Shown here piece after piece: positions 83-63,424 of a stretch of DNA of 64,000 nucleotides (its first letter is position 1; the number at the start of each line of letters is the position of its first letter). Source of the stretch: a virus (taxonomy: Duplodnaviria; Caudoviricetes). The notes beneath the pieces are model-generated. The model made no database searches, had not been told where the DNA came from, and saw nothing but the letters and a program-made list of their open reading frames with translations. Location: positions 5,079 to 69,078 of the IMG/VR virus record IMGVR_UViG_3300037418_001409; one strand, 5' to 3'. The translations under genes and the position numbers were made by a program.

Positions 83-952
83 ATGAGTACCGCGACTATG
101 ACGGACGTCACGGATGTTGATGTCGCCGAACCGCTAGCAGCAAATCCCCCAGCAATCCGGCAGCAATCGGCTGTTACCCAACAGCAGGCAAGTGCATCCC
201 TTACGACGCCGGTTGACTTGCTGCGCTTCGCCATTCAGAGCGGCGCAGATCTGGACCGTCTCGAGCGTTTGATGAAGATGCAGCAGGAATGGGAGGCCAA
301 CGAAGCGAAGAAGTCGTTTAGGCGCGCAATGGCTGCATTCAAGGCGGAATGCCCGCCGATTTTCAAGCGCAAAGAGGTTGGATACAACACTCGCGATGGA
401 GATTTTGTCGGTTATAAACACGCCGAGCTTTCGGACGTTACCGATGTTGTCGGGCCTTGCATGGCCCGCCACGGGCTGACATATGACTGGGACATCCGCC
501 AGGAACCCGGAAAGATCGTCGTTGACTGCATCGTGACTCACATTGACGGCCATTCTAAGAAGGTCAGCATGGAGGGTCCGCCCGATGCGAGCGGCAAGAA
601 AAACATCATGCAACAGGCCGGTAGCACCGTAACGTATTTGGAGCGGTACAGCTTGCTCGCGTGCCTTGGAATGTCCACCAAGAACGAGGACAACGATGGT
701 GCTGGGGGCGCTGATGATCAACCAGGTGATCAAGGGGTCTCGCCGACAAATGCGCGCGCTACCAACAAGCCTGCTGAGCCGCATTTTTACGACCAGAAGA
801 AATTCGACGCTAACAAAGATACATGGCGCGAAATGGTGAAGTCCGGTCGCAAGACGACGGCGGGAATGATTCAGTTCATCGAATCCAAAGGGGCACGCCT
901 CACGGTTGATCAACAGAACACCATAGATAGTTGGGGCCACGAAAATGACTGA
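83..952 (+). CDS. ERF-family single-strand annealing recombinase
   Basis: ERF-like motifs YKHAELSDV, VDCIVTHIDGHS and QQAGSTVTYLERYSLLACLG. It lies directly upstream of the YqaJ exonuclease. Confidence 0.8.
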   Translation: MSTATMTDVTDVDVAEPLAANPPAIRQQSAVTQQQASASLTTPVDLLRFAIQSGADLDRLERLMKMQQEWEANEAKKSFRRAMAAFKAECPPIFKRKEVGYNTRDGDFVGYKHAELSDVTDVVGPCMARHGLTYDWDIRQEPGKIVVDCIVTHIDGHSKKVSMEGPPDASGKKNIMQQAGSTVTYLERYSLLACLGMSTKNEDNDGAGGADDQPGDQGVSPTNARATNKPAEPHFYDQKKFDANKDTWREMVKSGRKTTAGMIQFIESKGARLTVDQQNTIDSWGHEND

Positions 953-2564
953 ACGCGTCACGCACGACCTTTTACAGGGCTCAGACGAGTGGGCTCAATT
1001 CCGCCTCACACACTATGGGGCCAGCGAGGCGGCTGCAATGTTGGGAATCTCGAAGAAGGTCAAGCGCAACGAGTTGCTGCGCATGAAGCACACCGGCACG
1101 GCGAAGGAATTCAGCGATTGGGTGCAAGAAAATATCCTTGATGAAGGCCATCGTCTCGAAGCAAGCGCCCGACCCTACATCGAAATGCAGCTCGGCGAGG
1201 ATTTGTATCCCGTCACCATGTCTATCGGCCATATCTCGGCATCTTGTGACGGGTTGACGATGGACGAGCGCACGGCGTGGGAGCACAAGCAGTTCAATCA
1301 GGAACTGTTCGACTCGCTGACCGCTGGCGTGCTGCCCGAGGAACACATACCTCAGGCTCAACAGGTGCTGATGGTAACGGGCGCGGACCGTCTGATCTTT
1401 ACGTGCTCAGATGGAACAGACGAAAACATGGTCAGCCTCGAAATCAAGCCGAATCAGGTTTGGTTTGACAGCCTCATGGATGGCTGGGACCAATTCCGCA
1501 AGGATCTTGCCGAGTATGTACCGCAGGAAATTTCCGAAAAGCCCGTTGCGTCGCCGCAAGAGAGTCTTCCGGTGCCGTTCGCGCAAGTGAGTGGAAGTAT
1601 TGCGGTCAAGTCAAATCTAGACCTGTTCGGCGCTGCATTGAAGGCTTTCATTGATCGGATTCCGGAGAAGCCGGAGACTGACCAGGACTTCGCCGACACA
1701 GATGCAGCCTGCAAGAAGCTCAAGGATGCAGAGGACTGCCTGACAGCAGCCGAGGACACTGCTTTGGCTAGCATCTCCGATGTCGAGACGATGCGCCGTA
1801 TGGTCTCTGACCTCCGTGAACAGGCGCGGCAGACGCGCCTTGCCAAGGAAAAGCTTGTTGAAGCGCGCAAGAAGCAGATCAAGGAAGCCGCGGTCGCCGA
1901 ACGCCGCCAGAAGTACGCCGAGCATGTCGAAGCGATCAACAATGCACTGGGCGATGTCAGTATCGCTGTGGTGACCCCCGACTTCGCGGGTGCGATCAAG
2001 AGCTTGAAAACGATCGCCAGCCTTCACAACGCGCTCGATACGGCATTGGCGAATGCGAAGATCGCGGCCGACGCTGCGGCCCGGGATTTGCGCGCAAAGC
2101 TGGATTGGTACGAGGCTGTCAAGGTGGGATATTCGTTCCTATTCCGCGACCTGCAGCAAATCATCCAGAAGCCGATGGATGACTTCCAACTGATCGTGAA
2201 CACGCGCGTCGCCGAGCACAAGCAGGCGGAAGCGGAAAAGATTGCGCAAGTGGCAGTGCAAGCGGCTCAGGAATCATCGAAGCCGGTCGATCCACTCGAT
2301 CCGCCGCAGCGTGCGCCGAATATCCCACAGATCGCGCGCCCAGCGCAACGCGTCGCCCCGACGAGCGCCCCGACGCTTCGCTTGGGCCAGATCAACGAAC
2401 GGCTCGCGCCGATCACCCTGACTGCAGATGGACTCGCGGCGCTGGGATTCCCGCACGCTGGCACCGACAAAAACGCGAAGCTCTATCACGAAGATTCGCT
2501 CCCGTTGATCTGCGAGGCGTTGATCGCTCATATTCAAGCGGCATTGCAAAAACAAGCCGCCTAA
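945..2564 (+). CDS. YqaJ/lambda-exonuclease-family recombinase with a long C-terminal coiled coil
   Basis: LLQGSDEWAQFR..GASEAAAMLG, ASCDG and WEHK motifs, plus QAQQVLMV. Confidence 0.85.
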   Translation: MTERVTHDLLQGSDEWAQFRLTHYGASEAAAMLGISKKVKRNELLRMKHTGTAKEFSDWVQENILDEGHRLEASARPYIEMQLGEDLYPVTMSIGHISASCDGLTMDERTAWEHKQFNQELFDSLTAGVLPEEHIPQAQQVLMVTGADRLIFTCSDGTDENMVSLEIKPNQVWFDSLMDGWDQFRKDLAEYVPQEISEKPVASPQESLPVPFAQVSGSIAVKSNLDLFGAALKAFIDRIPEKPETDQDFADTDAACKKLKDAEDCLTAAEDTALASISDVETMRRMVSDLREQARQTRLAKEKLVEARKKQIKEAAVAERRQKYAEHVEAINNALGDVSIAVVTPDFAGAIKSLKTIASLHNALDTALANAKIAADAAARDLRAKLDWYEAVKVGYSFLFRDLQQIIQKPMDDFQLIVNTRVAEHKQAEAEKIAQVAVQAAQESSKPVDPLDPPQRAPNIPQIARPAQRVAPTSAPTLRLGQINERLAPITLTADGLAALGFPHAGTDKNAKLYHEDSLPLICEALIAHIQAALQKQAA

Positions 2565-2579
2565 ACCGAACGGGCAAAG

Positions 2580-2633
2580 CCGCCGATGCGATGAAGCGCA
2601 GCTCCCCTCTGCGTACGGATCTCGCATCGGCGG
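2580..2633 (+). other. Intergenic long hairpin (12-bp perfect outer stem)
   Basis: CCGCCGATGCGA (2580-2591) pairs with TCGCATCGGCGG (2622-2633); there is an inner CGCAG/CTGCG stem. Confidence 0.55.
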
Positions 2634-2647
2634 TAGAGCCCCTACAC

Positions 2648-3053
2648 ATGGACAAGATCAAGAAATGCCCGCTACTGCCTGCAACCGGCGAAGCTCGCTC
2701 GTTTTGGTGATGTTGGCTATTCCTACCAGCGCGATTACGGCCCGATGTACGTGTGCATACCCTGCGCCGCCCACGTCGGTTGTCACCAAGGCACGACAAA
2801 GCCCCTTGGCGGCCTAGCCAATGCCGAATTACGTGAGTGGAAGATGAAGGCGCACGCCGCATTCGATCCACTCTGGCAGGCAAAGATTCGCCGCGATGGG
2901 TGCTCGAAAGGTCAAGCGCGACGAGCAGGATACAGGTGGCTATCCGAACAACTCGGAATCCCGTTCAAGCTCACCCATATCGGATATATGAGCGTCGAGG
3001 AATGCCAGCGGGTTGTCGAGGTTTGCGAGGCAGTTAGGAAACTAAACAATTGA
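2648..3053 (+). pseudogene. DUF3268-like zinc-finger protein with an apparent +1 frameshift near the 5' end
   Basis: ATG 2648 reads MDKIKKC. Removing one C near 2668-2672 gives C-P/R-Y-C and joins the 2745-3053 frame (YVCIPCAAHVGCH..PLGGLA). Confidence 0.6.
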
Positions 3054-3062
3054 GGAAAACAT

Positions 3063-3644
3063 ATGTTTCAGGAATTCCCGAAGATGGCGCGTTATTCGCG
3101 CGAAGTGATCGTCACCGAGAAGATCGATGGCACCAATGCGGCTGTCGTGATTGAGCCAGCAAATCCTGGTTCTGGCGCTATCGCTACAGTCGGCGGCTTC
3201 GATATGTTCGCGCAGTCTCGCACGCGATTCATCACACCGGCAGACGACAACGCCGGATTTGCACGATGGGCTGTCGAACACGCAGAGGAATTGATGCGTC
3301 TCGGCACTGGCCGTCACTTCGGCGAATGGTTCGGCTCTGGCATACAGCGCAATTACGGCCTGGAGGAAAAACGGTTTGCCCTATTCAATGTTTCGCGCTG
3401 GGATGCCCCCGAGGCACGGCCCGCGTGCTGCCATGTTGTCCCGACACTCTGGCGCGGCAATTTCTCGGACCTAGACGTCGATTTCATACTGCACGGCTTA
3501 GAAACGCTAGGCAGTCATTCTGTGCCCGGATTCATGAGGCCCGAAGGAATTGTCATCTTTCACGTCGCGGCTGGCATCGGATTCAAAAAGACGATCGAGA
3601 AGGATGAGGTGCCGAAGTCCATTGCTGAGCATCAAGCAGCATAA
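3063..3644 (+). CDS. RNA ligase (Rnl2-like nucleotidyltransferase domain)
   Basis: Motif I EKIDGTN, plus FGEW, FALFNV, EGIVIF and the terminal KK motif. Confidence 0.8.
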   Translation: MFQEFPKMARYSREVIVTEKIDGTNAAVVIEPANPGSGAIATVGGFDMFAQSRTRFITPADDNAGFARWAVEHAEELMRLGTGRHFGEWFGSGIQRNYGLEEKRFALFNVSRWDAPEARPACCHVVPTLWRGNFSDLDVDFILHGLETLGSHSVPGFMRPEGIVIFHVAAGIGFKKTIEKDEVPKSIAEHQAA

Positions 3645-3713
3645 CCTCCCGCGCCTCTATGCGCGGTTCTTGGGCTGGCCAGTACGTGCGGCCTTTTTCT
3701 TATAGGAAAAATC

Positions 3714-4079
3714 ATGCAACAAGTTCAGATTCCTCCGCTCGCTGAAGGCGAGACCTATCTCTGTGGTTTCGTCACCGCAAATGGCGACGTCTCGCACACG
3801 ATCCTACTTCCTGGCGACAACGACGATGCGACGTGGCAAGAGCAGATGGAATGGGCCAAGAGCATCGGCGGAGATATTCTCACTCGCGCCGAGCTCGTCA
3901 TTGCCTATGAGAAGCATCGCGAGCAGTTCCAAGCCGATGCCTATTGGTCGAACACACCGGACACCGATCCTGGCTATGACGGCTGGGCTTGGTTTCAGAC
4001 CTTCTACCGCGGCGGCCAGGACGGCAGCCTACAGAGCTACAGGTTGCGCGCCCGGGCCGTCCGCAGATTGACCATTTAA
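3714..4079 (+). CDS. DGR target protein 1, DUF1566/Lcl-like C-type lectin fold, 121 aa
   Basis: YWS...GWAWFQTF..G.Q.......RARAVRR C-terminus; contains VR1. Confidence 0.88.
   Translation: MQQVQIPPLAEGETYLCGFVTANGDVSHTILLPGDNDDATWQEQMEWAKSIGGDILTRAELVIAYEKHREQFQADAYWSNTPDTDPGYDGWAWFQTFYRGGQDGSLQSYRLRARAVRRLTI
3979..4068 (+). repeat. DGR variable repeat VR1
   Basis: 90 nt aligned without gaps to TR 5104-5193; 14 mismatches, all at TR adenines. Confidence 0.97.
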
Positions 4080-4109
4080 CCATTCATCCATTTTCAAACG
4101 AGGATTGCA

Positions 4110-4571
4110 ATGCCGATCACGCTTGAGCATATCGAAGCAGAGCATTCGCGCATCGGTGCTTTGATCGAAGAATTCAAGAAACAGCCGAAGTCGACCGAGT
4201 ACCGAATCGACGCAGCAACGATTCCCCTCGCGGCTGGCGAGCGCTTCGCAGGGCCCGTTCTCAACGACGACGGTACGCTGAGCCACTACCTCATTTTGCT
4301 GCCGGGCACCGCCGCCGATCTCGACTGGAATGAGGCGAAGGCGTGGGCATCCGAGCACGGTGGAGAACTTCCGACACGGCGAGGGCAATCGCTCCTGTTT
4401 GCCAATCTCAAAGGCGAATTCGAGTCGGCCTATTACTGGTCGGGAGAGGAACACTCGTCGGCCGGCTGGGCTTGGTCTCAGTACTTCAGCGACGGCACCC
4501 AGCTCTACCACCCTCAGAGCAGCAGGTTGCGCGCCCGGGCCGTCCGCAGATTTATCCCTTCAGTAATTTGA
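4110..4571 (+). CDS. DGR target protein 2, DUF1566/Lcl-like fold with an N-terminal helix, 153 aa
   Basis: Paralog of target 1 (ILLPG, W..A..WA...GG.L.TR, YWS, WAW, RARAVRR); contains VR2. Confidence 0.88.
   Translation: MPITLEHIEAEHSRIGALIEEFKKQPKSTEYRIDAATIPLAAGERFAGPVLNDDGTLSHYLILLPGTAADLDWNEAKAWASEHGGELPTRRGQSLLFANLKGEFESAYYWSGEEHSSAGWAWSQYFSDGTQLYHPQSSRLRARAVRRFIPSVI
4462..4551 (+). repeat. DGR variable repeat VR2
   Basis: 90 nt aligned without gaps to TR; 14 mismatches, all at TR adenines, and a different variant from VR1. Confidence 0.97.
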
Positions 4572-4586
4572 CCATTTAAAACCATC

Positions 4587-4961
4587 GTGGCCTTGCATAC
4601 CCAACTCCCGATATATCGAGCGGCCTACGCTCTGCTCGATGTCGTAACCGATCTCGTGAAGAATATGCCACGCGATCTGAAGCGCACGATTGGCGAGAAG
4701 ATCAGCACCGAGTGCATCGAGATTATGGTGCTGGTGTTTCGCGCGAACGTAGCCTCGGACAAGTCGCCGTATCTGGGCGACTTGCTCGAGCGGCAGCAGG
4801 TGATCGACCTGCTTCTGCGTTTGAGCATGGACAAGCATCTGATCTCGCCGAAGGGATACGCCAAGGCGGTCGAGATCACGACGAGCATTGGGAAGCAGGC
4901 CAACGGATGGAAGAATGCCGCATATCGCCCGCATCGTGGAGGTCAAGGCCGCCATGACTGA
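4587..4961 (+). CDS. avd: DGR accessory variability determinant (four-helix bundle)
   Basis: GTG start; LPIYRAAY..L, MPRDLKRTIGEKI, LLRLSMDKHLIS and IGKQANGW. It lies between the targets and TR. Confidence 0.88.
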   Translation: MALHTQLPIYRAAYALLDVVTDLVKNMPRDLKRTIGEKISTECIEIMVLVFRANVASDKSPYLGDLLERQQVIDLLLRLSMDKHLISPKGYAKAVEITTSIGKQANGWKNAAYRPHRGGQGRHD

Positions 4962-6312
4962 GCGATCATTCAATCTGGTCGTGCCGCTGGCTCAAAAGGC
5001 CACCGCCATGCGCAATGAGGAAACCGACCGCCGGCGCGCGGATAGGTCCAGCGCAGTTTCTCGGCTGAGTGATCGGTCGAGCGACGTAGATAGCACGATA
5101 CATACGGCTGGGCTTGGTATCAGAACTTCAACAACGGCAACCAGAACAACAACCAACAGAACAACAGGTTGCGCGCCCGGGCCGTCCGCAGATCGAGGGC
5201 CATTTTCGTTCGTCGATCTGGTCGAAGCGTATCTCGACTGTCGGCGCACGAAACGAAACAGCAATGCGGCGCTTTCGTTCGAGATCGATCTCGAGCGCAA
5301 TCTGCGCCGCCTGCACGACGAGTTGTCCGATGGCAGTTACCGCCCCGGCCGCTCGCTGTGCTTCGTTATCACGCGACCGAAGCCGCGGGAAGTATGGGCG
5401 GCCGAGTTTCGCGATCGAGTCGTGCATCACCTGCTTTACAACCACATCGGCCCGCGTTTCGAGCGGTCGTTCATCGTCGACTCCTGCGCCTGCATCAAGG
5501 GGCGTGGGACGTTGTACGCGGCCGTGCGCCTCGAGGCAAAGATCCGCTCCATCACGCAGAACTGGACGCGGCCGGCGTACTACCTGAAGTGCGATCTCGC
5601 GAACTTCTTCGTAAGCATCGACAAGCGCATCCTGCGCGAGTTGTTGTTCGCGAAGATCTCGGAGCCGTTTTGGCGCGAGCTGACCGATCTCGTGCTGATG
5701 CACGATCCGCGAACCGACTTCGAATACCGCGGCGATCCGGCGATGATGCAACTCGTTCCTCAGCACAAGCGATTGCTTGAGCAAGAGGCGCATCTCGGGT
5801 TGCCAATTGGCAACCTGTCGAGCCAGTTCTTCGCGAACGTCTACCTCGACGTATTGGACCGGCGTGCAAAGCATGTTCTCGGCGCGCGCCACTACATCCG
5901 GTATGTCGACGACTTTCTGTTCTTGCATGAATCGTCGGCGAGGCTGAACGAAATACTGGCTGACGTAACCCACTTCCTGCCAGAACGGCTCGACGTCCAG
6001 ATCAATCCACGGAAGACGATCCTTCAGCCGATCGACCGCGGCGTCGATTTCGTTGGCCACGTCATCAAGCCGTGGTGTCGGTCGACGCGCCGACGCACCG
6101 TCAACGAGGCGCTTCGCCGAGTCGCGGCGGCCCCAACGGCCGACGTTCATGTAATGGCGAACAGCTACTTCGGATTGCTGCGCCAAGCGCCCGCAAGTCA
6201 TCACGATCGCGCGCGCCTCGCCAACATCGCGCGTGACCGCGGGCACGTCGTTGACCACGGATTCAAGAAGACGTATCGGCGCTCGGCGTATTCGCTAACG
6301 AAAGGGGTATGA
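4954..6312 (+). CDS. DGR reverse transcriptase (452 aa from ATG 4954)
   Basis: GLPIGNLSSQFFAN (DGR-type SQ), YIRYVDDF, INPRKT and GVDFVGH motifs. GGAGGT RBS at 4938-4943; the ATG overlaps the avd stop. Confidence 0.95.
   Translation: MTERSFNLVVPLAQKATAMRNEETDRRRADRSSAVSRLSDRSSDVDSTIHTAGLGIRTSTTATRTTTNRTTGCAPGPSADRGPFSFVDLVEAYLDCRRTKRNSNAALSFEIDLERNLRRLHDELSDGSYRPGRSLCFVITRPKPREVWAAEFRDRVVHHLLYNHIGPRFERSFIVDSCACIKGRGTLYAAVRLEAKIRSITQNWTRPAYYLKCDLANFFVSIDKRILRELLFAKISEPFWRELTDLVLMHDPRTDFEYRGDPAMMQLVPQHKRLLEQEAHLGLPIGNLSSQFFANVYLDVLDRRAKHVLGARHYIRYVDDFLFLHESSARLNEILADVTHFLPERLDVQINPRKTILQPIDRGVDFVGHVIKPWCRSTRRRTVNEALRRVAAAPTADVHVMANSYFGLLRQAPASHHDRARLANIARDRGHVVDHGFKKTYRRSAYSLTKGV
5104..5193 (+). 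repeat. DGR template repeat TR
   Basis: AAC-rich (9 AAC codons in the VR frame, 28 A in total); ends in the 14-nt G/C run GCGCGCCCGGGCCG shared with both VRs. Confidence 0.97.
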
Positions 6313-6313
6313 C

Positions 6314-7564
6314 ATGAAAGACATTTTGAACCGCATCGCGGATTCGAGCCCGAATGAAAGCTCACATGAGTTGCTCTGCCGCCTTCACGATTGTGCGCAT
6401 GAGATTGAGTCGCTGCGCCGTGCGGGAGGAACTGCCGATGGCACGCACGGTACCGCGACGTTCCAAGCACGCGTGCAGCCATGGATGCTGGAATGTTTCG
6501 GCGTAGAGATCGCAGCCGACCGCGTGGAGCGCAATCACCGCTTTTTCGAGGAGGCGGCCGAACTCGTCCAGTCCTGCGGGATGACGGCCAGCGAAGCGCA
6601 CCAGCTCGTCGATTACACCTGGTCGAGGCCGGTGGGCGAGCCGAACCAGGAGGTCGGTGGCGTCATGGTGACGCTCGCAGCGCTTTGCCTCGCGAACGGG
6701 CTCGACATGCACGCGGCCGGCGAAACCGAGCTCGCGCGTATCAATCGGCCCGACATGGTCATCCGGATCCGGGCTAAGCAAGCGTCTAAACCGAAGCACT
6801 CGCCGCTTCCTGTCGACACTTTTCAATGGCCTCAGCAACTGGCCGTCGAGGCGGGTGCGCGGGACGAGCACGAATTGCCGCAAAGTGTTCTCGACGCCCT
6901 ACGATTCTATGCGCATGGCCACCACTACAACATCGATTCGGATCATCAGCAATTCGATACGGTAAGCGGAGAGCCTCAGAACTGGCTGTTCAGCGAGCGT
7001 GACGACGATTGCACCATGATCGAAGATGGCAGCATTGCAAGGGCCGCGCTCTGCGGTGGGGGGCAGGGATTCGAGGAGCCAACGACACCGGTAGAAGGCG
7101 AAATATTCCGAGCCGCACTCGCCCGCGCATCCGAGGCGGCGGCAGGGGAGCCGATATATCAAGCTCGCCAGCACTCGGATGAAGAACAAAGGTGGGATGA
7201 CGTGCAAGAGGCGACGTATTTGGCCTGCGTTGCCGAACCCAGGTTTTACGAAACGCGCATCGTCTACGCCGCCCCGCAACCCGCCATCCCTATGCAAAAA
7301 CTGGCCGACAGTCAGCGTCCGCTCGATCCAGAATTCTCGCGCGTCTTGAACGAGAATCTGGCCGACCTGTATGCCACTGACGGCGACGCGCAACCCGCCA
7401 GCGAGCAGCAAGCGGCGCGCGGGCTGAGCGATGGCGAAATTCTCAAGCTACTCAATCAATTCGCGATGGTGAATCGCGATGGGTATTGGAAATTTGGCGA
7501 AAAACGCGCCGTGATGTTCGCCCGCGCCATCCTGGCCGCCGCCAAAGGAGACGGTCATGAGTGA
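6314..7564 (+). CDS. Mosaic accessory protein with a MazG/NTP-pyrophosphohydrolase-like domain
   Basis: ERNHRFFEEAAELVQ...QEVGGVMVTLAAL resembles the EExxE / ExxDV helices of the all-alpha NTP-PPase fold. Confidence 0.45.
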   Translation: MKDILNRIADSSPNESSHELLCRLHDCAHEIESLRRAGGTADGTHGTATFQARVQPWMLECFGVEIAADRVERNHRFFEEAAELVQSCGMTASEAHQLVDYTWSRPVGEPNQEVGGVMVTLAALCLANGLDMHAAGETELARINRPDMVIRIRAKQASKPKHSPLPVDTFQWPQQLAVEAGARDEHELPQSVLDALRFYAHGHHYNIDSDHQQFDTVSGEPQNWLFSERDDDCTMIEDGSIARAALCGGGQGFEEPTTPVEGEIFRAALARASEAAAGEPIYQARQHSDEEQRWDDVQEATYLACVAEPRFYETRIVYAAPQPAIPMQKLADSQRPLDPEFSRVLNENLADLYATDGDAQPASEQQAARGLSDGEILKLLNQFAMVNRDGYWKFGEKRAVMFARAILAAAKGDGHE

Positions 7565-12626: not shown

Positions 12627-12857
12627 ATGAGCGACTATCTTTCCGCTCAGGAATTGGCAGAGCTTGTCGGCTGCAAGCCGAATCAAAGGGCCGCAATGAC
12701 CCATTGGTTGACCGATAACCACTGGCGCTTTGTGCTCGACAAGAATGGACTTCCCAAAGTGGCCCGCGCCTACCGCGATCGCAAACTTGGGTTGGTAAAT
12801 GAGACCTCAACGAACTCAAAATTCGATGCAGCGCCGAACCTACAAGCCTTTGCCTGA
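12627..12857 (+). CDS. DUF4224-family excisionase-like protein
   Basis: YLSAQELAELVGCK..QRAAM..WL....G.PKVAR.Y; overlaps the integrase start. Confidence 0.75.
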   Translation: MSDYLSAQELAELVGCKPNQRAAMTHWLTDNHWRFVLDKNGLPKVARAYRDRKLGLVNETSTNSKFDAAPNLQAFA

Positions 12858-14019
12858 GGCCACCAACGAAGGAACCGGCATCGACCGTCTTTACAAGAGA
12901 ACGGGCAAGCGAAAGGTGTCGTTCTGGTACAAATACCCGGACGGCCGCACCGAGACACTAACGACCGCTCCGAAGGGCGATCGCTCTGCGGCTGCCGAGG
13001 CTGAACGATCAGCCAAACGCAAGGCGCTTGACATTCAAGCGGGCCAGATAATAGCCGGATCCGTTGCGGATGCGATCGATCGATTCAGAACGGATGTTGA
13101 TCCGACACATTTCCGCGACCAATCCCGAGACGGCAAGTACGTGCGGAATTCCGCTTACGAGCGCCTGACCAAGTTTTTCGGGCGCATGGCACCAATGAAG
13201 CTCGAAACGCATCATGGATACCTGTATCTCGACGCGCGCGCGAAGGCTGGCGCGCCGATCGGGGCGAACAAGGATCTCGCGCTGATGCAGACCATGTGCA
13301 ATTACTTGATCAAATGGGGGATCATCAAGACAAACCCATTTTTCGGAATGATGTTGAACACCAAGGACAGGGATGTGCGTGTCATCGAGCGCGCGCATGT
13401 CGTGCGCTTTTATCTTTGGGCGCTTCGACAGCAGCAATCGTATCGGACGATGGGCCTAGCGGCGATGTTCTGTTACCTGACGGGATTTCGGGCTGCGGAG
13501 GTGCGACCGTTCCACATGACTGGCATCTCAGATGCTGGTGTGAGAGTTGTCAGCGCGAAGCGAAAGAGGGGCGAGGACGAGACGCAAAAGCTTCGGCTCT
13601 GGTCGACGAGGCTCCGCGTTGTGGTTGAGAGGGCGAAGCGGGATCGGTCGGTAGACAGCGTTTTCCTGTTCCCGAACCGCAAAGGACAGCCGTATTCGAA
13701 AAGCGGCTGGGCGTCGGTATGGCAAGATGCCATGTACACATACATCGGTACGAGCGATGCGGCCATCGCCAAGGAATTTGATCTCAAGAAAGAACGCGAG
13801 GCGGCCAAGCGGCGCGGACGGGAAGTGGCCAATGTAAAACTGACGCTGACGGATCATCCCAAATATTTTTCGATGAGCGACATCCGGCCCGCCGCGATCA
13901 CGACGAAACTGGAAAATCGCGCCGCGGACGCCTACGATTTCGCAGCGCACGTGAACCCGAGCACAACGCACAAACATTACGATCGGCGCCGCATCAAGAG
14001 GGCCAGCGCCACGGAATAG
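12799..14019 (+). CDS. int: Tyrosine integrase (alternative start at 12826)
   Basis: LTGFRAAEV, SDIR, AAHVNPSTTHKHYD catalytic region; adjacent to attP. Confidence 0.9.
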   Translation: MRPQRTQNSMQRRTYKPLPEATNEGTGIDRLYKRTGKRKVSFWYKYPDGRTETLTTAPKGDRSAAAEAERSAKRKALDIQAGQIIAGSVADAIDRFRTDVDPTHFRDQSRDGKYVRNSAYERLTKFFGRMAPMKLETHHGYLYLDARAKAGAPIGANKDLALMQTMCNYLIKWGIIKTNPFFGMMLNTKDRDVRVIERAHVVRFYLWALRQQQSYRTMGLAAMFCYLTGFRAAEVRPFHMTGISDAGVRVVSAKRKRGEDETQKLRLWSTRLRVVVERAKRDRSVDSVFLFPNRKGQPYSKSGWASVWQDAMYTYIGTSDAAIAKEFDLKKEREAAKRRGREVANVKLTLTDHPKYFSMSDIRPAAITTKLENRAADAYDFAAHVNPSTTHKHYDRRRIKRASATE

Positions 14020-14028
14020 GATGGGAAA

Positions 14029-14277
14029 ATTTCGGAACGGATGCCCGGAGAGTCCCATGAAACCGTATGCGCATACCCTTGTTTCGTTCCGAAATTATTT
14101 CCGTACTGCGATGTTTTTAAAAGAAAAAGTGCCGTTTGACTCCAGGATTGTGATTCCTGTTGTCGTGGGTTCGAGTCCCATCAGCCACCCCAAATTCCTT
14201 AGCAATTTCAATCATTTGCGTCACCGATCGAATTTCACGTAGCGAAATTTGGAACGCAGGAAGAGATTTCGGAACGG
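14029..14277. promoter_or_regulatory. attP region with integrase arm-type repeats flanking the core
   Basis: ATTTCGGAACG at 14029 and 14266, its reverse complement at 14085-14095, and the variant AATTTGGAACG near 14246. Confidence 0.75.
14141..14192 (+). other. attP core = 3' 52 nt of tRNA-His(GTG)
   Basis: CAGGA-TTGTGAT-TCCTG anticodon arm, GGTTCGAGTCC T-arm and CAGCCACCCCA end. The 5' acceptor strand and D-arm are absent. Confidence 0.9.
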
Positions 14278-19735: not shown

Positions 19736-19945
19736 ATGACACTGCGATCCATTTTTTCTAAAATCTTCCCGTCTCGATCGAGCGACGTTGATCTGACGGT
19801 TCCATCCATCAAATCTGCCTATGAGGCCGGTCTGTCTAATCAAGACGAGATGCTTGCTAACCCGTATATGAAAGGGACGAAGCAATATGAGGCGTGGGAA
19901 AGAGGTTCGGCCGAGCGAGCCCGTAAGGACATGACCGTGTGGTAA
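19736..19945 (+). CDS. Small hypothetical moron protein
   Basis: GGAGGT RBS; directly upstream of the acyltransferase. Confidence 0.55.
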   Translation: MTLRSIFSKIFPSRSSDVDLTVPSIKSAYEAGLSNQDEMLANPYMKGTKQYEAWERGSAERARKDMTVW

Positions 19946-19953
19946 CGCACCCA

Positions 19954-21060
19954 ATGCAAAAAACCGAGATAACCGCTTTAACCGGCCTGAGATTCTTCGC
20001 CGCCTTCGTCATCGTGCTCGATCATCTGTGGCCAGTGATCTTTAAATTCGAGCGGTTTGCAGTGCTGAATGACGCGATGCATCAGTTGGCCTACTTAGGC
20101 ATGACGCTGTTCTTCGTGTTGAGTGGATTCATCATCCACTACAACTATGTCGACATCGTTGCTCGGCCGGGTGGTTTGCGGAAATTCTTCGTGGCTCGTT
20201 TCAGCCGTCTATATCCGCTCTACTTGCTGGTGCTTGCGCTCGATTTTGCGCTCTATCATCCGCCGATGGATGGTATGGCGCTTCGCATGCTCACGATGAC
20301 TCAATCATGGACATACCAGTTTAGCGATGGTCGATTCCTGCCGTACGGATATCATTTCTCCGTCGTCTCATGGTCGATAAGCACAGAGATATTCTTCTAT
20401 GCCGTCTATCCCGTAATCGGCCCCATGGTGCGTCGTTTGCCTGCGCTTGCGTCGAGCGTTGGCACTGTGATCATCTGCGCGATATGCCTTTGGTGGCTCT
20501 CGATCCATACCCCGAAATTCGATACTCAGGGATGGCTGTGGTACACATCGCCTTACGCTCGAGTGCTCGAATTTATCGTTGGTTGCGCGCTCGCCCACGC
20601 ATATCAGGCCGGTATCAAATTGAGTCGACCGTTTGCAACGCTTGCTGTCGTTTGGATTGCTCTTTTCGTGTTCCGCGGCTTCCTCAGAAACGAGGAGGTT
20701 TCGGTCGGCATGCTGCATCTTGGGTTGCTGCTTCCGATCTCAGTTTTGATCTTTTCGTCCGCGACGTCGCAGTCATTTGCGTGGTTGAGGCATCCATTTG
20801 CAGTGCGCATGGGAGATGCTAGTTATTCGATGTATCTGCTACATCTGATCGTTGTCGAAAAACTCGCTTTCAGCGCGCCACTTGCCGACACGCACGATTC
20901 ATGGGTGAACGCTTGCTCGCGGTTTATCGTGGCATTGCTGGCAATCAGCATCGTCTCCGTGCTCTCGCATCGTTACATCGAGGTTCCGGCACGGAGATGG
21001 CTGAGATCGGCGCTCATGAAACGAGCGCCCACCTCAATTAGTGCATCCGTCGGCAAGTGA
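19954..21060 (+). CDS. Acyltransferase-3 (OafA-like O-antigen/polysaccharide O-acetyltransferase) moron
   Basis: LTGLRFFAA, FFVLSGF, ARFSRLYP, WSISTEIFFY and SYSMYLLH motifs; about 10 TM segments. Confidence 0.9.
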   Translation: MQKTEITALTGLRFFAAFVIVLDHLWPVIFKFERFAVLNDAMHQLAYLGMTLFFVLSGFIIHYNYVDIVARPGGLRKFFVARFSRLYPLYLLVLALDFALYHPPMDGMALRMLTMTQSWTYQFSDGRFLPYGYHFSVVSWSISTEIFFYAVYPVIGPMVRRLPALASSVGTVIICAICLWWLSIHTPKFDTQGWLWYTSPYARVLEFIVGCALAHAYQAGIKLSRPFATLAVVWIALFVFRGFLRNEEVSVGMLHLGLLLPISVLIFSSATSQSFAWLRHPFAVRMGDASYSMYLLHLIVVEKLAFSAPLADTHDSWVNACSRFIVALLAISIVSVLSHRYIEVPARRWLRSALMKRAPTSISASVGK

Positions 21061-59119: not shown

Positions 59120-59997
59120 GCGACCTCGGCGAACAAGTCAACCTGATCGAGCAAAGCGCTCCTGCAGTTCTCCACCGCCAGCTTGAAGTAGGACGGCTTG
59201 AGCTCGGATCCCACACCACGACGCCCCATCTTGAGTGCCGTGTAGACCTCGCTCCCGATGCCGAGAAACGGGGTGTAGACCAGATCATTCGGGTTCGTCC
59301 AGAGATCGATCGCGCGTTCGATTACCTCAAGCTGTAGGGGCGATATGTGGCGCTCGTCGTCGTTTTCACGCGCACTCATGTACTGCAGTGTCTTCGACTG
59401 GTTGATATCCATCCAGACCGGCGAGGCATAGCGCTGCCACAAATCAACCGGAAGGCTTTCATGCGTGTGCGTGACGGGATCCGGGTTTTCTCCCGGCTTG
59501 CGCATGATGACCAGATAGTCGGCGATGCCCTGACGGCTCATGGCGCTGTCCTTGCGGAGTTGCTTGTAGAGCAGGCCGAGCGCCTTCGTGCGCTGCATTG
59601 CGACTACCGGGTCTTTCCAGATGCACACTTCCGAGTGATAGATGAAGCCAGCGTCCTGATGGGCGCGGATGATTTCGCCGCGGAAGTCTTTCAAGCCGAT
59701 ATAGCCATCCCGGGCCTTGGACGTCGGGAGGTTCATGCAATGAATCGCGACCAAGCGGCCTGGCTTCATGATGCGGATATGCTCCGCGATCAGGAATCTA
59801 TAGTGGGTCCAAAAATCGGCGCTCGACGCATTGTTCCCCATGTCGCGCTCGGAATTGCTGAATACGAACAGCGATTCGAATGGCGGGCTGTAGACCGAGA
59901 AATCGATAGACGAGTCCGGCAGCGAGCGGGCAACGTCGACGCAATCGGCGTTGTAAAGCGAAAATCGGTCGTGAATTTCTTGATTGAGCACGTTCAT
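59116..59997 (-). CDS. DNA N4-C/N6-A methyltransferase (beta class)
   Basis: YSPPF catalytic motif upstream of PFLGIGS (SAM-binding). Confidence 0.88.
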   Translation of the reverse strand: MNVLNQEIHDRFSLYNADCVDVARSLPDSSIDFSVYSPPFESLFVFSNSERDMGNNASSADFWTHYRFLIAEHIRIMKPGRLVAIHCMNLPTSKARDGYIGLKDFRGEIIRAHQDAGFIYHSEVCIWKDPVVAMQRTKALGLLYKQLRKDSAMSRQGIADYLVIMRKPGENPDPVTHTHESLPVDLWQRYASPVWMDINQSKTLQYMSARENDDERHISPLQLEVIERAIDLWTNPNDLVYTPFLGIGSEVYTALKMGRRGVGSELKPSYFKLAVENCRSALLDQVDLFAEVA

Positions 59998-61385
59998 TAG
60001 GCACGCTCCACGTTCTGCGCGATCCATCCTGGAATCACCAAAGGAAGTTGAGGGCGATATGCCTCGGTTCCCCTTTTGGCGCCTTCGATTTGCTTCTTGG
60101 TCAGATCGCGCATGTAGGCGACCATTTCACTAGCCATGGCGTCGCTTTGCTCCTGCTTGCGGGCGATGTTGTCTTTCACTGCACCCTCGGTATCGGCGGT
60201 GATGATGTGTACGGTTACGGCGTTCTTCTGCCCGAACCGATAGCAGCGCCGGACGGCTTGATAGAACTGCTCATATGAATCATTCATGCCGGCGAAGATC
60301 TGCGTGTCGCAGAACTGCCAGTTCATGCCAGCGCCGCAGATAGATGCCTTGCTGACCAGCGCGCGCTTTTCTCCATGCGTGAAGGCCATGATGTTTCGAG
60401 TCTTGTCTTCGACAGACATTGATCCGGTCACTTCCACCGCGCCGTCGATCAGCTTTGCGAGACGTTCCGATTCTTCGTTCAGATGACACCAAACGATGAC
60501 GGGGCCGGAGTGCTCATTGGCAAGACGAGCCGCCAGTTCGATCCGGGAATCGATGCTGGCCTTCTTCGCTTGCCGACGTTCGCTCAGGCTTTGAGCCACG
60601 ACCGGGAACAAGTGACCTTCAAGCAATTCGCCGCTTTCGATGACGTGCTCGACCAAACGAAGAGGAGGCAACACATAGCCAGCACCGTCGAATCCGAGGT
60701 CCGCAGAACTACGAATGCAAATGGCCCACGTCGCCATCCATTCCCAAAACTTGACCTTCCCGTGCCCCTTCAAGCGCCATTTGCCTGTGTCGCCCCCGTC
60801 ATGCGTAAAGAACGTCGAGAGCATTTCCACCGCAGTCATAACGCCAAGGAACTCAGCCTGATTGCCCAGTTCCATCCAATCGTTGGGGCTCGGCGTCGCG
60901 GTGCAGGACAGCTTGTACGGCGTACGGCGAAACGCATCGGTAATGAACTGGCGCGTCTTGCTCGTGTGAGATTTGAGGATCGAGCTTTCATCGAGCACGA
61001 CGCCGACGAACGAATCGAGCTCAAAGTGATCGAGCATTTCATAGTTCGTGATCGTGATTCCGGGCTCAACTTCGCTGTCTTGGCGGCAATACTTGATCTC
61101 GATGCCGAACTTCGCCGCTTCTTCGACGGTCTGCTGAGCCACGCACAATGGCGCGACGATGATGACGTCACCGCCCGTGTGCTCGCATACCTTCTGAGCC
61201 CACACGGCCTGCTGTAGAGTCTTGCCGAGGCCCGTATCTTCGAACAAGGCGGCGCGACCGCGTTTCAGAGCCCATTTCACGCAGGCGGCCTGGAAATCGA
61301 ACAACGGGCCGACCGGAATATCGCAGTCGAAGCCAGTCGGCACGTCAGCAAAGCCCTTGCTGGCGATGAACGACTCATAATCCAT
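59997..61385 (-). CDS. SNF2-like/DEAD-box helicase
   Basis: DTGLGKT, LDESS, SCTATP and QAVRRCYRFGQ; start at MDYESF. Confidence 0.88.
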   Translation of the reverse strand: MDYESFIASKGFADVPTGFDCDIPVGPLFDFQAACVKWALKRGRAALFEDTGLGKTLQQAVWAQKVCEHTGGDVIIVAPLCVAQQTVEEAAKFGIEIKYCRQDSEVEPGITITNYEMLDHFELDSFVGVVLDESSILKSHTSKTRQFITDAFRRTPYKLSCTATPSPNDWMELGNQAEFLGVMTAVEMLSTFFTHDGGDTGKWRLKGHGKVKFWEWMATWAICIRSSADLGFDGAGYVLPPLRLVEHVIESGELLEGHLFPVVAQSLSERRQAKKASIDSRIELAARLANEHSGPVIVWCHLNEESERLAKLIDGAVEVTGSMSVEDKTRNIMAFTHGEKRALVSKASICGAGMNWQFCDTQIFAGMNDSYEQFYQAVRRCYRFGQKNAVTVHIITADTEGAVKDNIARKQEQSDAMASEMVAYMRDLTKKQIEGAKRGTEAYRPQLPLVIPGWIAQNVERA

Positions 61386-61572
61386 GTACGGAACGGCGCT
61401 CACCCTCACTCTCCTCGTCGCAACATAGCGATAGCAGCCATAAAAGCAGCGCGCGCGGGGCCGCATCCTTCGACGCACCGCCAGAAACGGTAGCGGTTCA
61501 GGAACGTCGGGCGGGACAACGCCTGACCGCAGATCGCGAGTTTTTCGAGAGTGGTTATGGTCATGCTTCGCC

Positions 61573-61758
61573 TCAGTGAGAAGTCGAATGTTTGCCACTT
61601 ACAACCATCTGGCCGACGATCAGAAATGCCTCCATTAGTCGTCGATCCGTGACGCAACGTCGATTCAGTTCGGCCATGACTGCCGCCAGTTCGTCGCATT
61701 GCGTTCCTGTCTCCTGCGTAGCCTCGCGTGCTATCGCGAGCGCCTCTTGTTCGGTCAT
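61573..61758 (-). CDS. Small hypothetical protein
   Basis: Coupled to the upstream regulator gene. Confidence 0.45.
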   Translation of the reverse strand: MTEQEALAIAREATQETGTQCDELAAVMAELNRRCVTDRRLMEAFLIVGQMVVSGKHSTSH

Positions 61759-62594: not shown

Positions 62595-62608
62595 GGACAA
62601 TGACGCGC

Positions 62609-63424
62609 ATGGCTACCATCAAAGAGATACGGAAACAGGAGGCCGACCGGCGACGCGCTCGTCTGTCCGAGTTGATCCGGCTCCATTTCGAGGACAGGCA
62701 GAAAGCCTTCATAGATCGAACTGGTATCAACCAAGGCGAGCTTTCCGGACTGCTCAAAGACAAATCGTTCGGGGGACTAAAGGCGAGGGCGCTGGAAAGC
62801 GCAGCGGGACTTCTGCCAGGAAGTCTTGATGCCGCAGAGGGAGCGCCTTTTTATGCGGCCTCCTACCACAACCATGTTTCCATTGATACGTCGAATACGC
62901 GGGGTGCCAAACGTTTAACTGAGGAGCGAAAAGTCGTACGCACGGGTAATCTTTTCCCTACAGAAGATCTACCTCAACCCTCAGAAGAAGAGTTCGCACT
63001 CGTGCCCCAACTCGATATCGCGGCGGCCTGCGGCAATGGTCGATTCGAGGATCATGTAGTCGTGAAGGGTGGCCTGGCATTCAAGAAATCGTTTTTGAAA
63101 GAGTATGGCGTCCCCGAGCACGCTGCACGCATCATTTATGCGTCAGGCGGAAGCATGTCTCCTCGCATTCAGGATGGCCGCGTTGTGCTGATCAATACGG
63201 CCGAGCGCAACCCCATCGATGGACGAATTTTTGCTGCGTGCTTGCCAGACGGCGGACTCATCCTGAAGCGTCTTGTACGCGATTACCATCCGATGGTTGG
63301 CGAGACGGTCTGGATTCTTCGTAGCGACAACCCTGATAAGGTGATGTTCCCGGACAAGATACTCCCGCCCGACGATAGAACGGTGATCGTTGGACGCGCC
63401 GTCTGGACGGACAGCATCCTCTAG
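62609..63424 (+). CDS. cI: CI-like repressor with an S24 autocleavage domain
   Basis: N-terminal HTH; AACG, GGSMSPRIQDG (Ser) and ILKRL (Lys). Confidence 0.9.
   Translation: MATIKEIRKQEADRRRARLSELIRLHFEDRQKAFIDRTGINQGELSGLLKDKSFGGLKARALESAAGLLPGSLDAAEGAPFYAASYHNHVSIDTSNTRGAKRLTEERKVVRTGNLFPTEDLPQPSEEEFALVPQLDIAAACGNGRFEDHVVVKGGLAFKKSFLKEYGVPEHAARIIYASGGSMSPRIQDGRVVLINTAERNPIDGRIFAACLPDGGLILKRLVRDYHPMVGETVWILRSDNPDKVMFPDKILPPDDRTVIVGRAVWTDSIL

What the first reader, a model, noticed from the sequence alone, without database searches (positions are those of the whole stretch)
3714..6312. Complete DGR in which one template diversifies two tandem, apparently cytoplasmic early proteins rather than a tail fibre
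Seen in sequence: TR 5104-5193 aligns without gaps to VR1 (3979-4068) and VR2 (4462-4551). Each has 14 mismatches, all at TR adenines (for example AAC to TAC, CGC, GGC, AGC or CTC), and the two VRs carry different variants. A 14-nt G/C run precedes the 3' end, and avd and an RT with LSSQ/YVDD are adjacent. Established: this is the adenine-mutagenic retrohoming signature of BPP-1-type DGRs, and each AAC can yield 15 amino acids, so the 9 AACs alone allow about 3.8e10 variants per target. Inference: both targets are 121-153 aa stand-alone lectin-fold paralogs without signal peptides. They sit in the pL-type early operon, far from the tail genes, and I saw no VR copy in the tail module. They may be hypervariable intracellular binders, for example against host defence or host takeover targets, possibly acting as a heterodimer with two variable surfaces. 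DGRs themselves are known; the function of targets like these is not established.
Basis: partly seen in the sequence, partly recalled or inferred. Interest (0 to 1): 0.9.

Follow-up and report, generated by a model that had tools for sequence, protein, structure and literature searches.

The report
Phage DGR diversifying two small early lectins
A temperate phage of a Burkholderia-like soil bacterium carries an intact targeted-mutation system (a DGR) that rewrites the binding face of two tiny lectin-fold proteins encoded among its early genes instead of its tail; the element is real, but it belongs to a common family already on record, and what the proteins bind is still unknown.

Summary
TR 5104-5193 matches VR1 3979-4068 and VR2 4462-4551 without gaps. 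There are 14 mismatches to each VR, and all 28 fall on TR adenines (chance about 6e-15). The TR has 9 AAC codons and a 14-nt G/C run. Avd and a BPP-1-like RT (LSSQ, YVDD) are adjacent. No further VR exists in the 69-kb record.

The element is not new. It is about 80% identical in DNA to the DGR cassette of Burkholderia phage Magia, noted in its 2021 genome announcement. It also occurs in vB_E192a, vB_PL1 and at least 168 IMG/VR contigs. This scan has met the family several times on other DNA.

In relatives the family is clearly active. Three cassettes that differ by at most 1 base in about 2,460 differ at 10-16 positions in each VR.

The targets are stand-alone DUF1566-type C-lectin domains without signal peptides. 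I add four points:
- The cassette rides on at least three unrelated tail types, and no virion gene is shared.
- None of 244 flanking genes hit a virion family in the tallies; the neighbours are recombination, DNA-modification and RNA-repair genes.
- Target 2 has a heptad-indel coiled-coil neck.
- The TR lies inside the RT reading frame.

The "intracellular binder" idea is therefore favoured over a virion role but remains untested.

The parts
3714..4079 (+). Target 1: 121-aa stand-alone DUF1566-type C-lectin domain, no signal peptide
   Evidence: ORF. More than 1,000 homologue clusters, named 'DUF1566 domain-containing protein' in Burkholderia, Paraburkholderia, Ralstonia and Trinickia. AF2 mean pLDDT 76 with the VR loop 88-107 below 50. 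Foldseek lists C-type lectins and Lcl 8q4e, all weak (E 0.2 or worse).
3979..4068 (+). VR1 (last 30 codons of target 1)
   Evidence: 14 mismatches to the TR, all at TR adenines, 0 at other bases.
4110..4571 (+). Target 2: 153-aa paralogue with an N-terminal helix (residues 5-23, probable coiled-coil neck) plus a DUF1566-type C-lectin domain
   Evidence: AF2 pLDDT 91. VIA Z 13.3 to Bd2740 C-domain, 13.1 to Lcl C-domain 8q4e, 8.3 to Mtd 1yu0. The only length polymorphism of the N-terminal segment in 120 homologues is +7 residues. Weak Pfam Lcl_C hit, 19.4 bits, below the cut-off.
4462..4551 (+). VR2
   Evidence: 14 mismatches to the TR, all at TR adenines. The variants differ from those of VR1.
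4587..4961 (+). avd (accessory variability determinant), GTG start
   Evidence: Pfam PF22296 bAvd 43.3 bits, above the cut-off of 40. NCBIfam DivGenRetAVD E 3.6e-13, below its cut-off.
4954..6312 (+). DGR reverse transcriptase. The start is inferred at ATG 4954, which overlaps the avd stop (ATGACTGA). The conserved RT domain begins at about 5194.
   Evidence: RVT_1. Best PDB relative is Bordetella phage bRT 8ub7, E 3e-36, with query residue 87 aligned to bRT residue 16. LSSQ and YVDD are present. No ATG/GTG/TTG lies in frame between the TR and the conserved N-terminus. The frame is open from avd to the RT domain in 63 of 67 relatives.
5104..5193 (+). Template repeat (TR): 28 A, 9 AAC codons in the VR frame. 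It lies inside the RT reading frame, read in a different frame from the one in which the VRs are read.
5171..5184 (+). 14-nt G/C-only run within the shared 3' end (IMH-like). The same run lies in VR1 at 4046-4059 and in VR2 at 4529-4542. TR and VRs diverge right after ...CGCAGAT.
83..3644 (+). Upstream context: Erf-like annealing protein (83-952), RecE/YqaJ-like exonuclease (945-2564), DUF3268 zinc-finger protein (2745-3053), RNA ligase (3063-3644)
12799..14019 (+). Tyrosine integrase at the distal end of the same-strand early gene block
   Evidence: phrog_1, E 3e-21.
62600..63424 (+). CI-like repressor (context for temperate, lambda-like layout)
   Evidence: phrog_4 and phrog_6201.

Best explanation
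This is an intact diversity-generating retroelement of the Bordetella-phage BPP-1 type.

Mechanism. A transcript containing the TR (5104-5193) is copied by the RT-Avd complex. Random bases are inserted opposite template adenines. The cDNA then replaces the homologous 90-nt VR at the 3' end of two adjacent genes. This recodes about 11 codons (9 AAC, TAT, CAA) on the ligand-binding face of two small C-type-lectin (DUF1566/Lcl_C-type) proteins.

What is shown: the element's anatomy, the adenine-only mismatch pattern, its membership of the Magia-type cassette family, and recent activity of that family in close relatives.

What is inferred:
- The window's own copy is active (about 0.85). Both VRs show zero non-A mismatches, and RT and Avd are intact.
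- The targets are not virion parts. They are soluble proteins made from the early, recombination-to-integrase gene block in the infected or induced cell (about 0.65).
- Target 2 oligomerises through an N-terminal coiled-coil neck, like collectins and tetranectin (about 0.6).
- Each incoming phage genome therefore expresses its own pair of binder variants inside the new host. The most likely selective use is binding variable host or competitor molecules, for example counter-defence (about 0.3). The ligand is unknown.
For: DGR identity: TR/VR pattern; only three copies in the record; Avd; RT closest to bRT 8ub7 at E 3e-36, against 3e-8 or worse for group II and retron RTs; C-lectin fold.

Family membership. 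There is about 80% nt identity restricted to T1..RT in Magia, vB_E192a, vB_PL1 and vB_Sb_QDWS. Searches show the T1-T2-Avd-TR-RT order in most of 80 IMG/VR loci.

Family activity: one search counts 1,754 A-site against 33 non-A TR/VR mismatches. Searches show that E192a, PL1 and L045 have cassettes with 0-1 differences outside the VRs but 10-16 differences in each VR, with identical TRs.

Non-virion inference:
- No signal peptide or TM segment.
- Close relatives are always stand-alone; the 'longer' search found only read-through tandem fusions.
- The window's tail sheath is found in 7 of 50 cassette-bearing records, a PF04984 sheath in 15 of 51, and neither in about 28.
- In 19 whole records the only protein clusters shared by more than 12 are the DGR parts.
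- None of 244 flanking ORFs hit a virion family in the tallies. Upstream are YqaJ/RecT/ERF/DUF2303; downstream are DNA methylases, HNH, DUF5131, RtcB, PAPS reductase and DpdA.

Coiled coil: helix 5-23; the only indel is +7 residues.
Against: There is no direct evidence of variation in this element's own population. The only runs available are contigs. The alternative VR1 contig (six differences, all at TR-A sites) may come from a related phage present in both samples.

No GC hairpin follows either VR, although BPP-1 uses one for efficient homing.

No expression, virion-proteome or binding data exist for any family member.

Gene position does not prove timing or location of the protein, and no promoter was located.

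A multivalent lectin with a coiled-coil neck is the classic design for binding repetitive surfaces. That fits an extracellular or virion role at least as well as an intracellular one.
Confidence: 0.85

Rival explanations
1. The two lectins are virion-associated adhesins. They would be small accessory receptor-binding proteins that dock on tail fibres, baseplate or capsid. The DGR would then serve tropism switching, as in BPP-1.
For: This is the default role of phage DGR targets (PMC8144416). The fold resembles fibre-tip adhesins: Bd2740 C-domain Z 13.3 and Mtd Z 8.3. PHROG 4245 and BFVD hits include long phage proteins with a C-terminal DUF1566. The coiled-coil neck of target 2 suggests a multimeric, fibre-like head.
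Against: There is no attachment domain: target 1 is a bare 121-aa lectin domain. The genes lie in the early recombination-to-integrase block in every one of 60 or more loci, and none of 244 neighbours hit a virion family in the tallies. The cassette moves alone (about 80% nt identity ends exactly at T1 and RT) between phages with unrelated sheath and tail types, and no virion gene is shared that could be the docking partner.
Confidence: 0.2
2. The lectins are soluble proteins set free by lysis and act outside the cell, for example by coating receptors, debris or matrix glycans. No export signal would be needed.
For: No signal peptide, yet a lectin fold whose solved relatives bind extracellular ligands. 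A probable oligomeric neck suggests avidity for repetitive surfaces.
Against: There is no precedent that I know of and no direct evidence. An early-operon position is an odd place for a product needed after lysis. The neighbours are intracellular nucleic-acid enzymes.
Confidence: 0.12
3. The element is a recently dead relic. The VRs are frozen and the pattern is history only.
For: No read-level variation could be shown for this copy. No hairpin follows the VRs. Several relatives have lost the RT and keep orphan targets (L010, L037, L044, L050 and L062).
Against: There are zero non-A mismatches in 2 x 90 nt. The avd and RT frames are intact with their catalytic motifs. Scaffold-identical relatives have different VRs.
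Confidence: 0.08

Closest known systems
DGR of Burkholderia cenocepacia phage Magia (MT701587; genes 44-47 and remote gene 57; Microbiol Resour Announc 2021, PMC7883833), with vB_E192a (PQ789819) and vB_PL1 (PV072756)
   Same: The same cassette: small lectin target, second small target, Avd, TR, RT. It shares 79-81% nt identity over 3726-6233. It has the same position between early recombination or regulator genes and the integrase, the same VR motif, and adenine-only TR/VR differences.
   Different: The phage backbone is unrelated: there is no nt similarity outside the cassette, the sheath type differs, and the genome is 69 kb. Upstream here are Erf, RecE and an RNA ligase rather than an AAA ATPase and a regulator. 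Magia has a third, remote target; this record has none.
Bordetella phage BPP-1 DGR (mtd-avd-TR-brt)
   Same: Adenine-specific mutagenic retrohoming signature, Avd, an RT closest to bRT (8ub7, E 3e-36), a C-lectin-fold VR at the C-terminus, and a G/C-rich IMH-like 3' end.
   Different: In BPP-1 the target is a 381-aa tail-fibre-tip protein in the late structural operon. Here there are two 121- and 153-aa stand-alone domains in the early block. The TR lies inside the RT reading frame rather than in a non-coding spacer. No GC hairpin follows the VRs.
Legionella pneumophila DGR target LdtA and the 'category d' (DUF1566/CLec2) targets of Wu et al. 2018 (PMC5758913)
   Same: DUF1566-type C-lectin VR ending in ...RARAVRR. 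According to that survey, about half of this class are short, domain-only proteins, and 13% of DGRs have two targets.
   Different: LdtA is a surface-exposed lipoprotein with an export signal on an ICE. The proteins here have no signal and sit in a phage early block.
DGR-diversified cytoplasmic C-lectin sensors of multicellular bacteria and cyanobacteria (PMC10907252, PMC7517822; seen by title and abstract only)
   Same: A precedent that DGR-diversified C-lectin domains can work inside the cell in conflict or signalling systems.
   Different: Those are cellular genes in which the C-lectin is fused to NTPase, kinase or protease domains. Here the lectin stands alone, has no effector domain and is phage-encoded.

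Membership tests
Diversity-generating retroelement (BPP-1 type) | TR/VR repeat pair whose differences are confined to TR adenines | tested here: met
   28 of 28 mismatches fall at A and 0 at other bases, for two VRs. Chance is about 6e-15.
Diversity-generating retroelement (BPP-1 type) | RT of the DGR clade (motif 4 [I/L]GxxxSQ, YxDD) next to the TR | tested here: met
   IGNLSSQ and YVDD are present. The best solved relative is bRT 8ub7 at E 3e-36, against 3e-8 or worse for others. All retron, Drt, group II and AbiA models score far below their cut-offs.
Diversity-generating retroelement (BPP-1 type) | Accessory protein Avd | tested here: met
   PF22296 bAvd 43.3 bits, above the cut-off of 40. 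NCBIfam DivGenRetAVD 49.7 bits, below its cut-off of 80. No PDB sequence hit.
Diversity-generating retroelement (BPP-1 type) | VR at the C-terminus of a C-type-lectin-fold target | tested here: met
   AF2 models. VIA Z 13.3, 13.1 and 8.3 to Bd2740-C, Lcl-C and Mtd.
Diversity-generating retroelement (BPP-1 type) | IMH/IMH* with a G/C-rich element, and a hairpin or cruciform downstream of the VR | tested here: inconclusive
   A 14-nt G/C run is present, and TR and VRs diverge right after CGCAGAT. No stable hairpin follows either VR: MFE -2.9 and -3.6 kcal/mol, no better than shuffles.
Diversity-generating retroelement (BPP-1 type) | Ongoing mutagenic homing | tested here: inconclusive
   For this copy only contigs are available. 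For the family, scaffold-identical cassettes have 10-16 differences per VR.
Magia-type two-target cassette of Burkholderiaceae prophages | Gene order T1-T2-avd-TR-RT, with orthologous T1 and T2, in the early block upstream of int | tested here: met
   (T1 52-83% and T2 49-84% aa identity); for context.
Pfam PF07603 Lcl_C / DUF1566 | Score above the Pfam gathering threshold | tested here: not met
   T2 scores 19.4 bits against a cut-off of 34.9, and T1 has no hit. Homologues at 70-80% identity carry PF07603 in the precomputed tables and are named DUF1566 by NCBI. The fold match to Lcl-C 8q4e has Z 13.1. So these are divergent members by fold and homology, not by the HMM threshold.
Phage receptor-binding tail protein (Mtd-like) | N-terminal fibre or attachment domains and a location in the tail module | tested here: not met
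   The proteins are 121 and 153 aa, a lectin domain only (plus a 20-residue helix in T2). The tail genes lie at 21-35.6 kb on the other strand. No neighbour hit a virion family in 60 or more relatives.

The most novel reading that the evidence does not exclude
The cassette is a portable 'binder library' for the phage's early intracellular conflict with its host. Every progeny genome would carry a different pair of lectin-fold binders, expressed immediately on entry alongside methylases, RNA ligases and recombination functions. Rare variants that neutralise a host defence protein, or a competing prophage's protein, would rescue infection. This would be the counter-defence mirror image of DGR-diversified tail fibres.
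Probability: 0.25. Interest if true: 0.85.

Novelty: new member of a known kind. Interest (0 to 1): 0.38.

Why it matters
DGRs are the only known natural system of targeted protein hypermutation outside vertebrate immunity. In phages they are understood as tools for switching receptors. A large, active family in Burkholderiaceae prophages (168 or more IMG/VR contigs and more than 1,000 protein clusters per target) instead diversifies signal-less mini-lectins encoded among early counter-defence-type genes. If these proteins act inside the cell, this would be a new use of DGRs: an anticipatory repertoire of inhibitors. It would also be a ready-made scaffold for evolving intracellular binders. 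This particular window adds only another member. The open question belongs to the family and can be tested in cultured phages such as Magia and vB_E192a.

Tried and rejected
I obtained context from the search for related loci and the fetch from genomes instead.
- Sequencing runs: no RNA holder is listed, and all 24 runs are kept as contigs only. Laying four runs gave fragmented unitigs that break at the three repeats. One alternative VR1 contig differs at six listed places, all of them TR-A sites. It occurs in the source run and in a second study that holds only 32% of the words, so it may belong to a related phage. I do not count it as proof of variation in this population.
- The promoter scan of 2900-6600 found nothing, and the terminator hits are no more than chance. 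A hairpin plus U-tract at about 3672-3699, upstream of target 1, is weak (z -1.4).
- No hairpin follows the VRs.
- The search for fused or longer relatives of target 2 found three proteins: two are tandem-target read-throughs and one is a target joined to unrelated sequence.
- PADLOC has no model for the targets, Avd or the three downstream genes.
- PHROGs has no family for target 1 and only the C-terminus of an unknown 583-aa family for target 2.
- Foldseek of the target 1 model against the PDB gave only weak C-lectin rows (E 0.2 or worse), because the VR loop is modelled poorly.
- The literature held no proteomics or expression data for Magia, vB_E192a, vB_PL1, vB_Sb_QDWS or zrk29-1.
- The heterodimer idea could not be tested because no multimer prediction is available.
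- The codon-position test of the avd-TR spacer showed no periodicity. I therefore do not claim that the RT N-terminal extension has a conserved protein sequence.
Full report
**1. Observation**

An ungapped comparison of TR 5104-5193 with VR1 3979-4068 and VR2 4462-4551 gives 14 mismatches each, and every one is at a TR adenine. The TR has 28 A in 90 nt, so all 28 mismatches falling on A has a chance of about 6e-15. The two VRs carry different substitutions, giving 12 amino-acid differences over 31 codons.

In the VR reading frame the TR has 9 AAC codons, and 15^9 = 3.8e10. The shared 3' end contains the G/C-only run GCGCGCCCGGGCCG (5171-5184). TR and VRs diverge right after ...CGCAGAT.

A repeat search of the window and a BLAST of the TR against the whole 69,078-bp record (the window is bases 5079-69078 of an IMG/VR record) find only these three copies. 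No VR lies in the tail module.

**2. The genes**

- Target 1 (3714-4079, 121 aa) and target 2 (4110-4571, 153 aa) are paralogues, about 40% identical.
- avd is 4587-4961. It scores above the cut-off for Pfam bAvd and hits NCBIfam DivGenRetAVD below its cut-off.
- The RT reading frame is open from 4888 to 6312 and carries IGNLSSQ and YVDD.
- The RT's best solved relative is the Bordetella phage RT 8ub7 (E 3e-36). Group II, retron and other RTs score 3e-8 or worse, and all defence-RT models fall far below their cut-offs.
- Neither target has a hydrophobic N-terminus. The maximum 19-residue Kyte-Doolittle mean is 0.86, and both proteins are acidic.

AlphaFold2 gives a confident model of target 2 (pLDDT 91). 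It consists of an N-terminal helix (residues 5-23), a linker and a C-type-lectin domain. VIA-align finds Z 13.3 to the Bdellovibrio Bd2740 C-terminal domain, 13.1 to the Legionella Lcl C-domain 8q4e, 9-11 to many animal C-type lectin domains and 8.3 to Mtd. BFVD gives phage DUF1566 proteins. The target 1 model is good except for the hypervariable loop.

**3. Genome context**

On the + strand lie an Erf-like annealing protein (83-952), a RecE/YqaJ-like exonuclease (945-2564), a DUF3268 zinc-finger protein, an RNA ligase (3063-3644), the DGR, several unknowns and a tyrosine integrase (12799-14019).

On the - strand lie lysis genes (16-19.7 kb), tail fibre, baseplate and sheath genes (21-35.6 kb), head, portal and terminase genes (38.7-46.5 kb) and replication genes, including a helicase at 59997-61598. 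A CI-like repressor is at 62600-63424.

The phage is therefore a lambda-like temperate myovirus. The DGR lies in the recombination-to-int ("pL-type") gene block, 15 kb or more from the tail genes. The block's promoter was not located.

**4. It is a known family**

Megablast against GenBank phages finds 79-81% identity confined to 3704/3726-6089/6233, which is exactly target 1 through RT. The hits are Burkholderia phages Magia, vB_E192a and vB_PL1, and two 47,902-bp records labelled Shewanella phage vB_Sb_QDWS and Hujiaoplasma phage zrk29-1. The rest of the window matches nothing.

Magia's record annotates the genes as "lectin fold domain protein, potential DGR target", Avd-like protein and RT. 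[quoted passage not shown]

Each target has more than 1,000 clusters at 90% identity. Most are named "DUF1566 domain-containing protein" from Burkholderia, Paraburkholderia, Ralstonia and Trinickia. IMG/VR holds 168 contigs with a target 2 relative. In the 80 loci fetched, the order T1-T2-Avd-TR-RT is nearly universal, and many have a third tandem target or a remote one 2-10 kb upstream.

Wu et al. 2018 already record that 13% of DGRs have two targets and that about half of DUF1566-type targets are short, domain-only proteins. Earlier agents of this scan reached the same family on other genomes.

**5. Activity**

Across the family there are 1,754 TR/VR mismatches at A sites against 33 at other bases.

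The strongest evidence comes from three cassettes: vB_E192a, vB_PL1 and IMG/VR locus L045. They differ by 0-1 bases in about 2,460 nt outside the VRs and have identical TRs. Yet they differ at 10-16 positions within each 64-nt variable stretch, in both VRs. Both targets are therefore being rewritten on a time scale at which no ordinary substitution has occurred.

For the window's own copy I have only indirect evidence. Both VRs show zero non-A mismatches, and avd and RT are intact. The public runs are contigs only. An alternative VR1 contig whose six listed differences all fall on TR-A sites may belong to a related phage.

**6. What the targets do: new comparative evidence**

(a) The cassette is independent of the virion.
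- The window's sheath protein is found in only 7 of 50 cassette-bearing records. A PF04984-type sheath is found in 15 of 51. About 28 have neither.
- In 19 whole records clustered all-against-all, the only protein clusters present in more than 12 records are the RT and the targets. Some pairs of records share nothing else; G037 and the window share 2 clusters.
- A small adhesin that had to dock on a fibre or capsid would need a conserved partner. None exists.

(b) The neighbourhood is conserved in kind.
- Of 124 ORFs just upstream, the recurrent families are YqaJ, DUF2303, AAA_23, beta-clamp, NinB, RecT and ERF.
- Of 120 ORFs just downstream, they are C5 and N6/N4 DNA methylases, HNH, DUF5131, RtcB, PAPS reductase and DpdA.
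- No family in either tally is a virion family. In the window itself an RNA ligase sits directly upstream.
- These are early recombination, DNA-modification and RNA-repair functions, many of them counter-defence in character.

(c) Close relatives are never fused to another domain.

(d) The only length polymorphism of the target 2 N-terminal helix among 120 homologues is an insertion of exactly 7 residues (37 against 44 residues). That is the signature of a coiled coil. Target 2 is therefore probably an oligomeric "neck plus lectin head", like tetranectin or the collectins.

Points (a) to (c) favour soluble early proteins over virion parts. Point (d) suggests avidity for repetitive ligands and cautions against a simple 1:1 inhibitor picture. 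I put a non-virion role at about 0.65, the counter-defence binder idea at about 0.25-0.3, a virion adhesin at about 0.2 and an extracellular role after lysis at about 0.12.

**7. Other anatomy**

The RT domain homologous to bRT begins at about nt 5167-5212. No ATG, GTG or TTG lies in frame between the TR and that point. An ATG at 4954 overlaps the avd stop (ATGACTGA). In 63 of 67 relatives the RT frame is open from the avd stop through the TR. The TR therefore lies inside the RT reading frame, read in a different frame from the one in which the VRs are read. Whatever plays the role of BPP-1's spacer RNA must then overlap RT coding sequence.

The spacer before the TR shows no codon-position periodicity. 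The extension is thus probably translated but unconstrained in sequence. No GC hairpin follows either VR.

**8. Verdict**

It is another member of a catalogued, widespread cassette family. The question is best pursued in the cultured relatives.

Noticed in passing
window 4954-5193 (and 67 related loci): The TR lies inside the RT reading frame. ATG 4954 overlaps the avd stop. No start codon lies between the TR and the bRT-homologous N-terminus. The frame is open from avd to the RT domain in 63 of 67 relatives, yet the pre-TR spacer shows no codon-position periodicity. The RT therefore seems to carry a translated but unconstrained extension of about 80 aa that includes the TR.
   Followed up: partly
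window 4110-4240 (target 2 residues 1-44): The N-terminal helix of target 2 has a single length polymorphism of exactly one heptad (+7 aa in 27 of 120 homologues). This suggests a coiled-coil neck and an oligomeric lectin, like tetranectin or the collectins.
   Followed up: partly
L006 (OK094664) and hit H3 (OP650936): 'Shewanella phage vB_Sb_QDWS' and 'Hujiaoplasma phage zrk29-1' are both 47,902 bp and carry the same Burkholderia-type DGR cassette with near-equal match statistics. They may be the same phage, and the host labels look doubtful.
   Followed up: no
window 4068-4100 and 4552-4586: No GC-rich hairpin follows either VR (MFE -2.9 and -3.6 kcal/mol, no better than shuffles), unlike BPP-1. 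The same TTGACCATTTAA string ends both target regions, as another first-reader note on this window said.
   Followed up: partly
window 3063-3644: An RNA ligase gene (PF09414) lies directly upstream of the DGR. In relatives, RtcB, DNA methylases, DpdA and PAPS reductase sit directly downstream of the RT. The cassette lies in an island of counter-defence-type early genes.
   Followed up: partly
window 14125-14194: A 70-nt stretch just downstream of the integrase is 91% identical to Burkholderia phage BgManors32. It may be an attP core. ARAGORN finds no tRNA there.
   Followed up: partly
window 19939-21060: An O-antigen acetyltransferase-like gene lies on the + strand, between the lysis and tail-fibre genes on the - strand. 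It is a likely lysogenic-conversion moron.
   Followed up: no
L010, L037, L044, L050, L062, L075, L076, L082, L087: Some relatives keep tandem target genes but have no detectable RT, and sometimes no Avd, within the locus. These are orphaned and presumably frozen targets.
   Followed up: no
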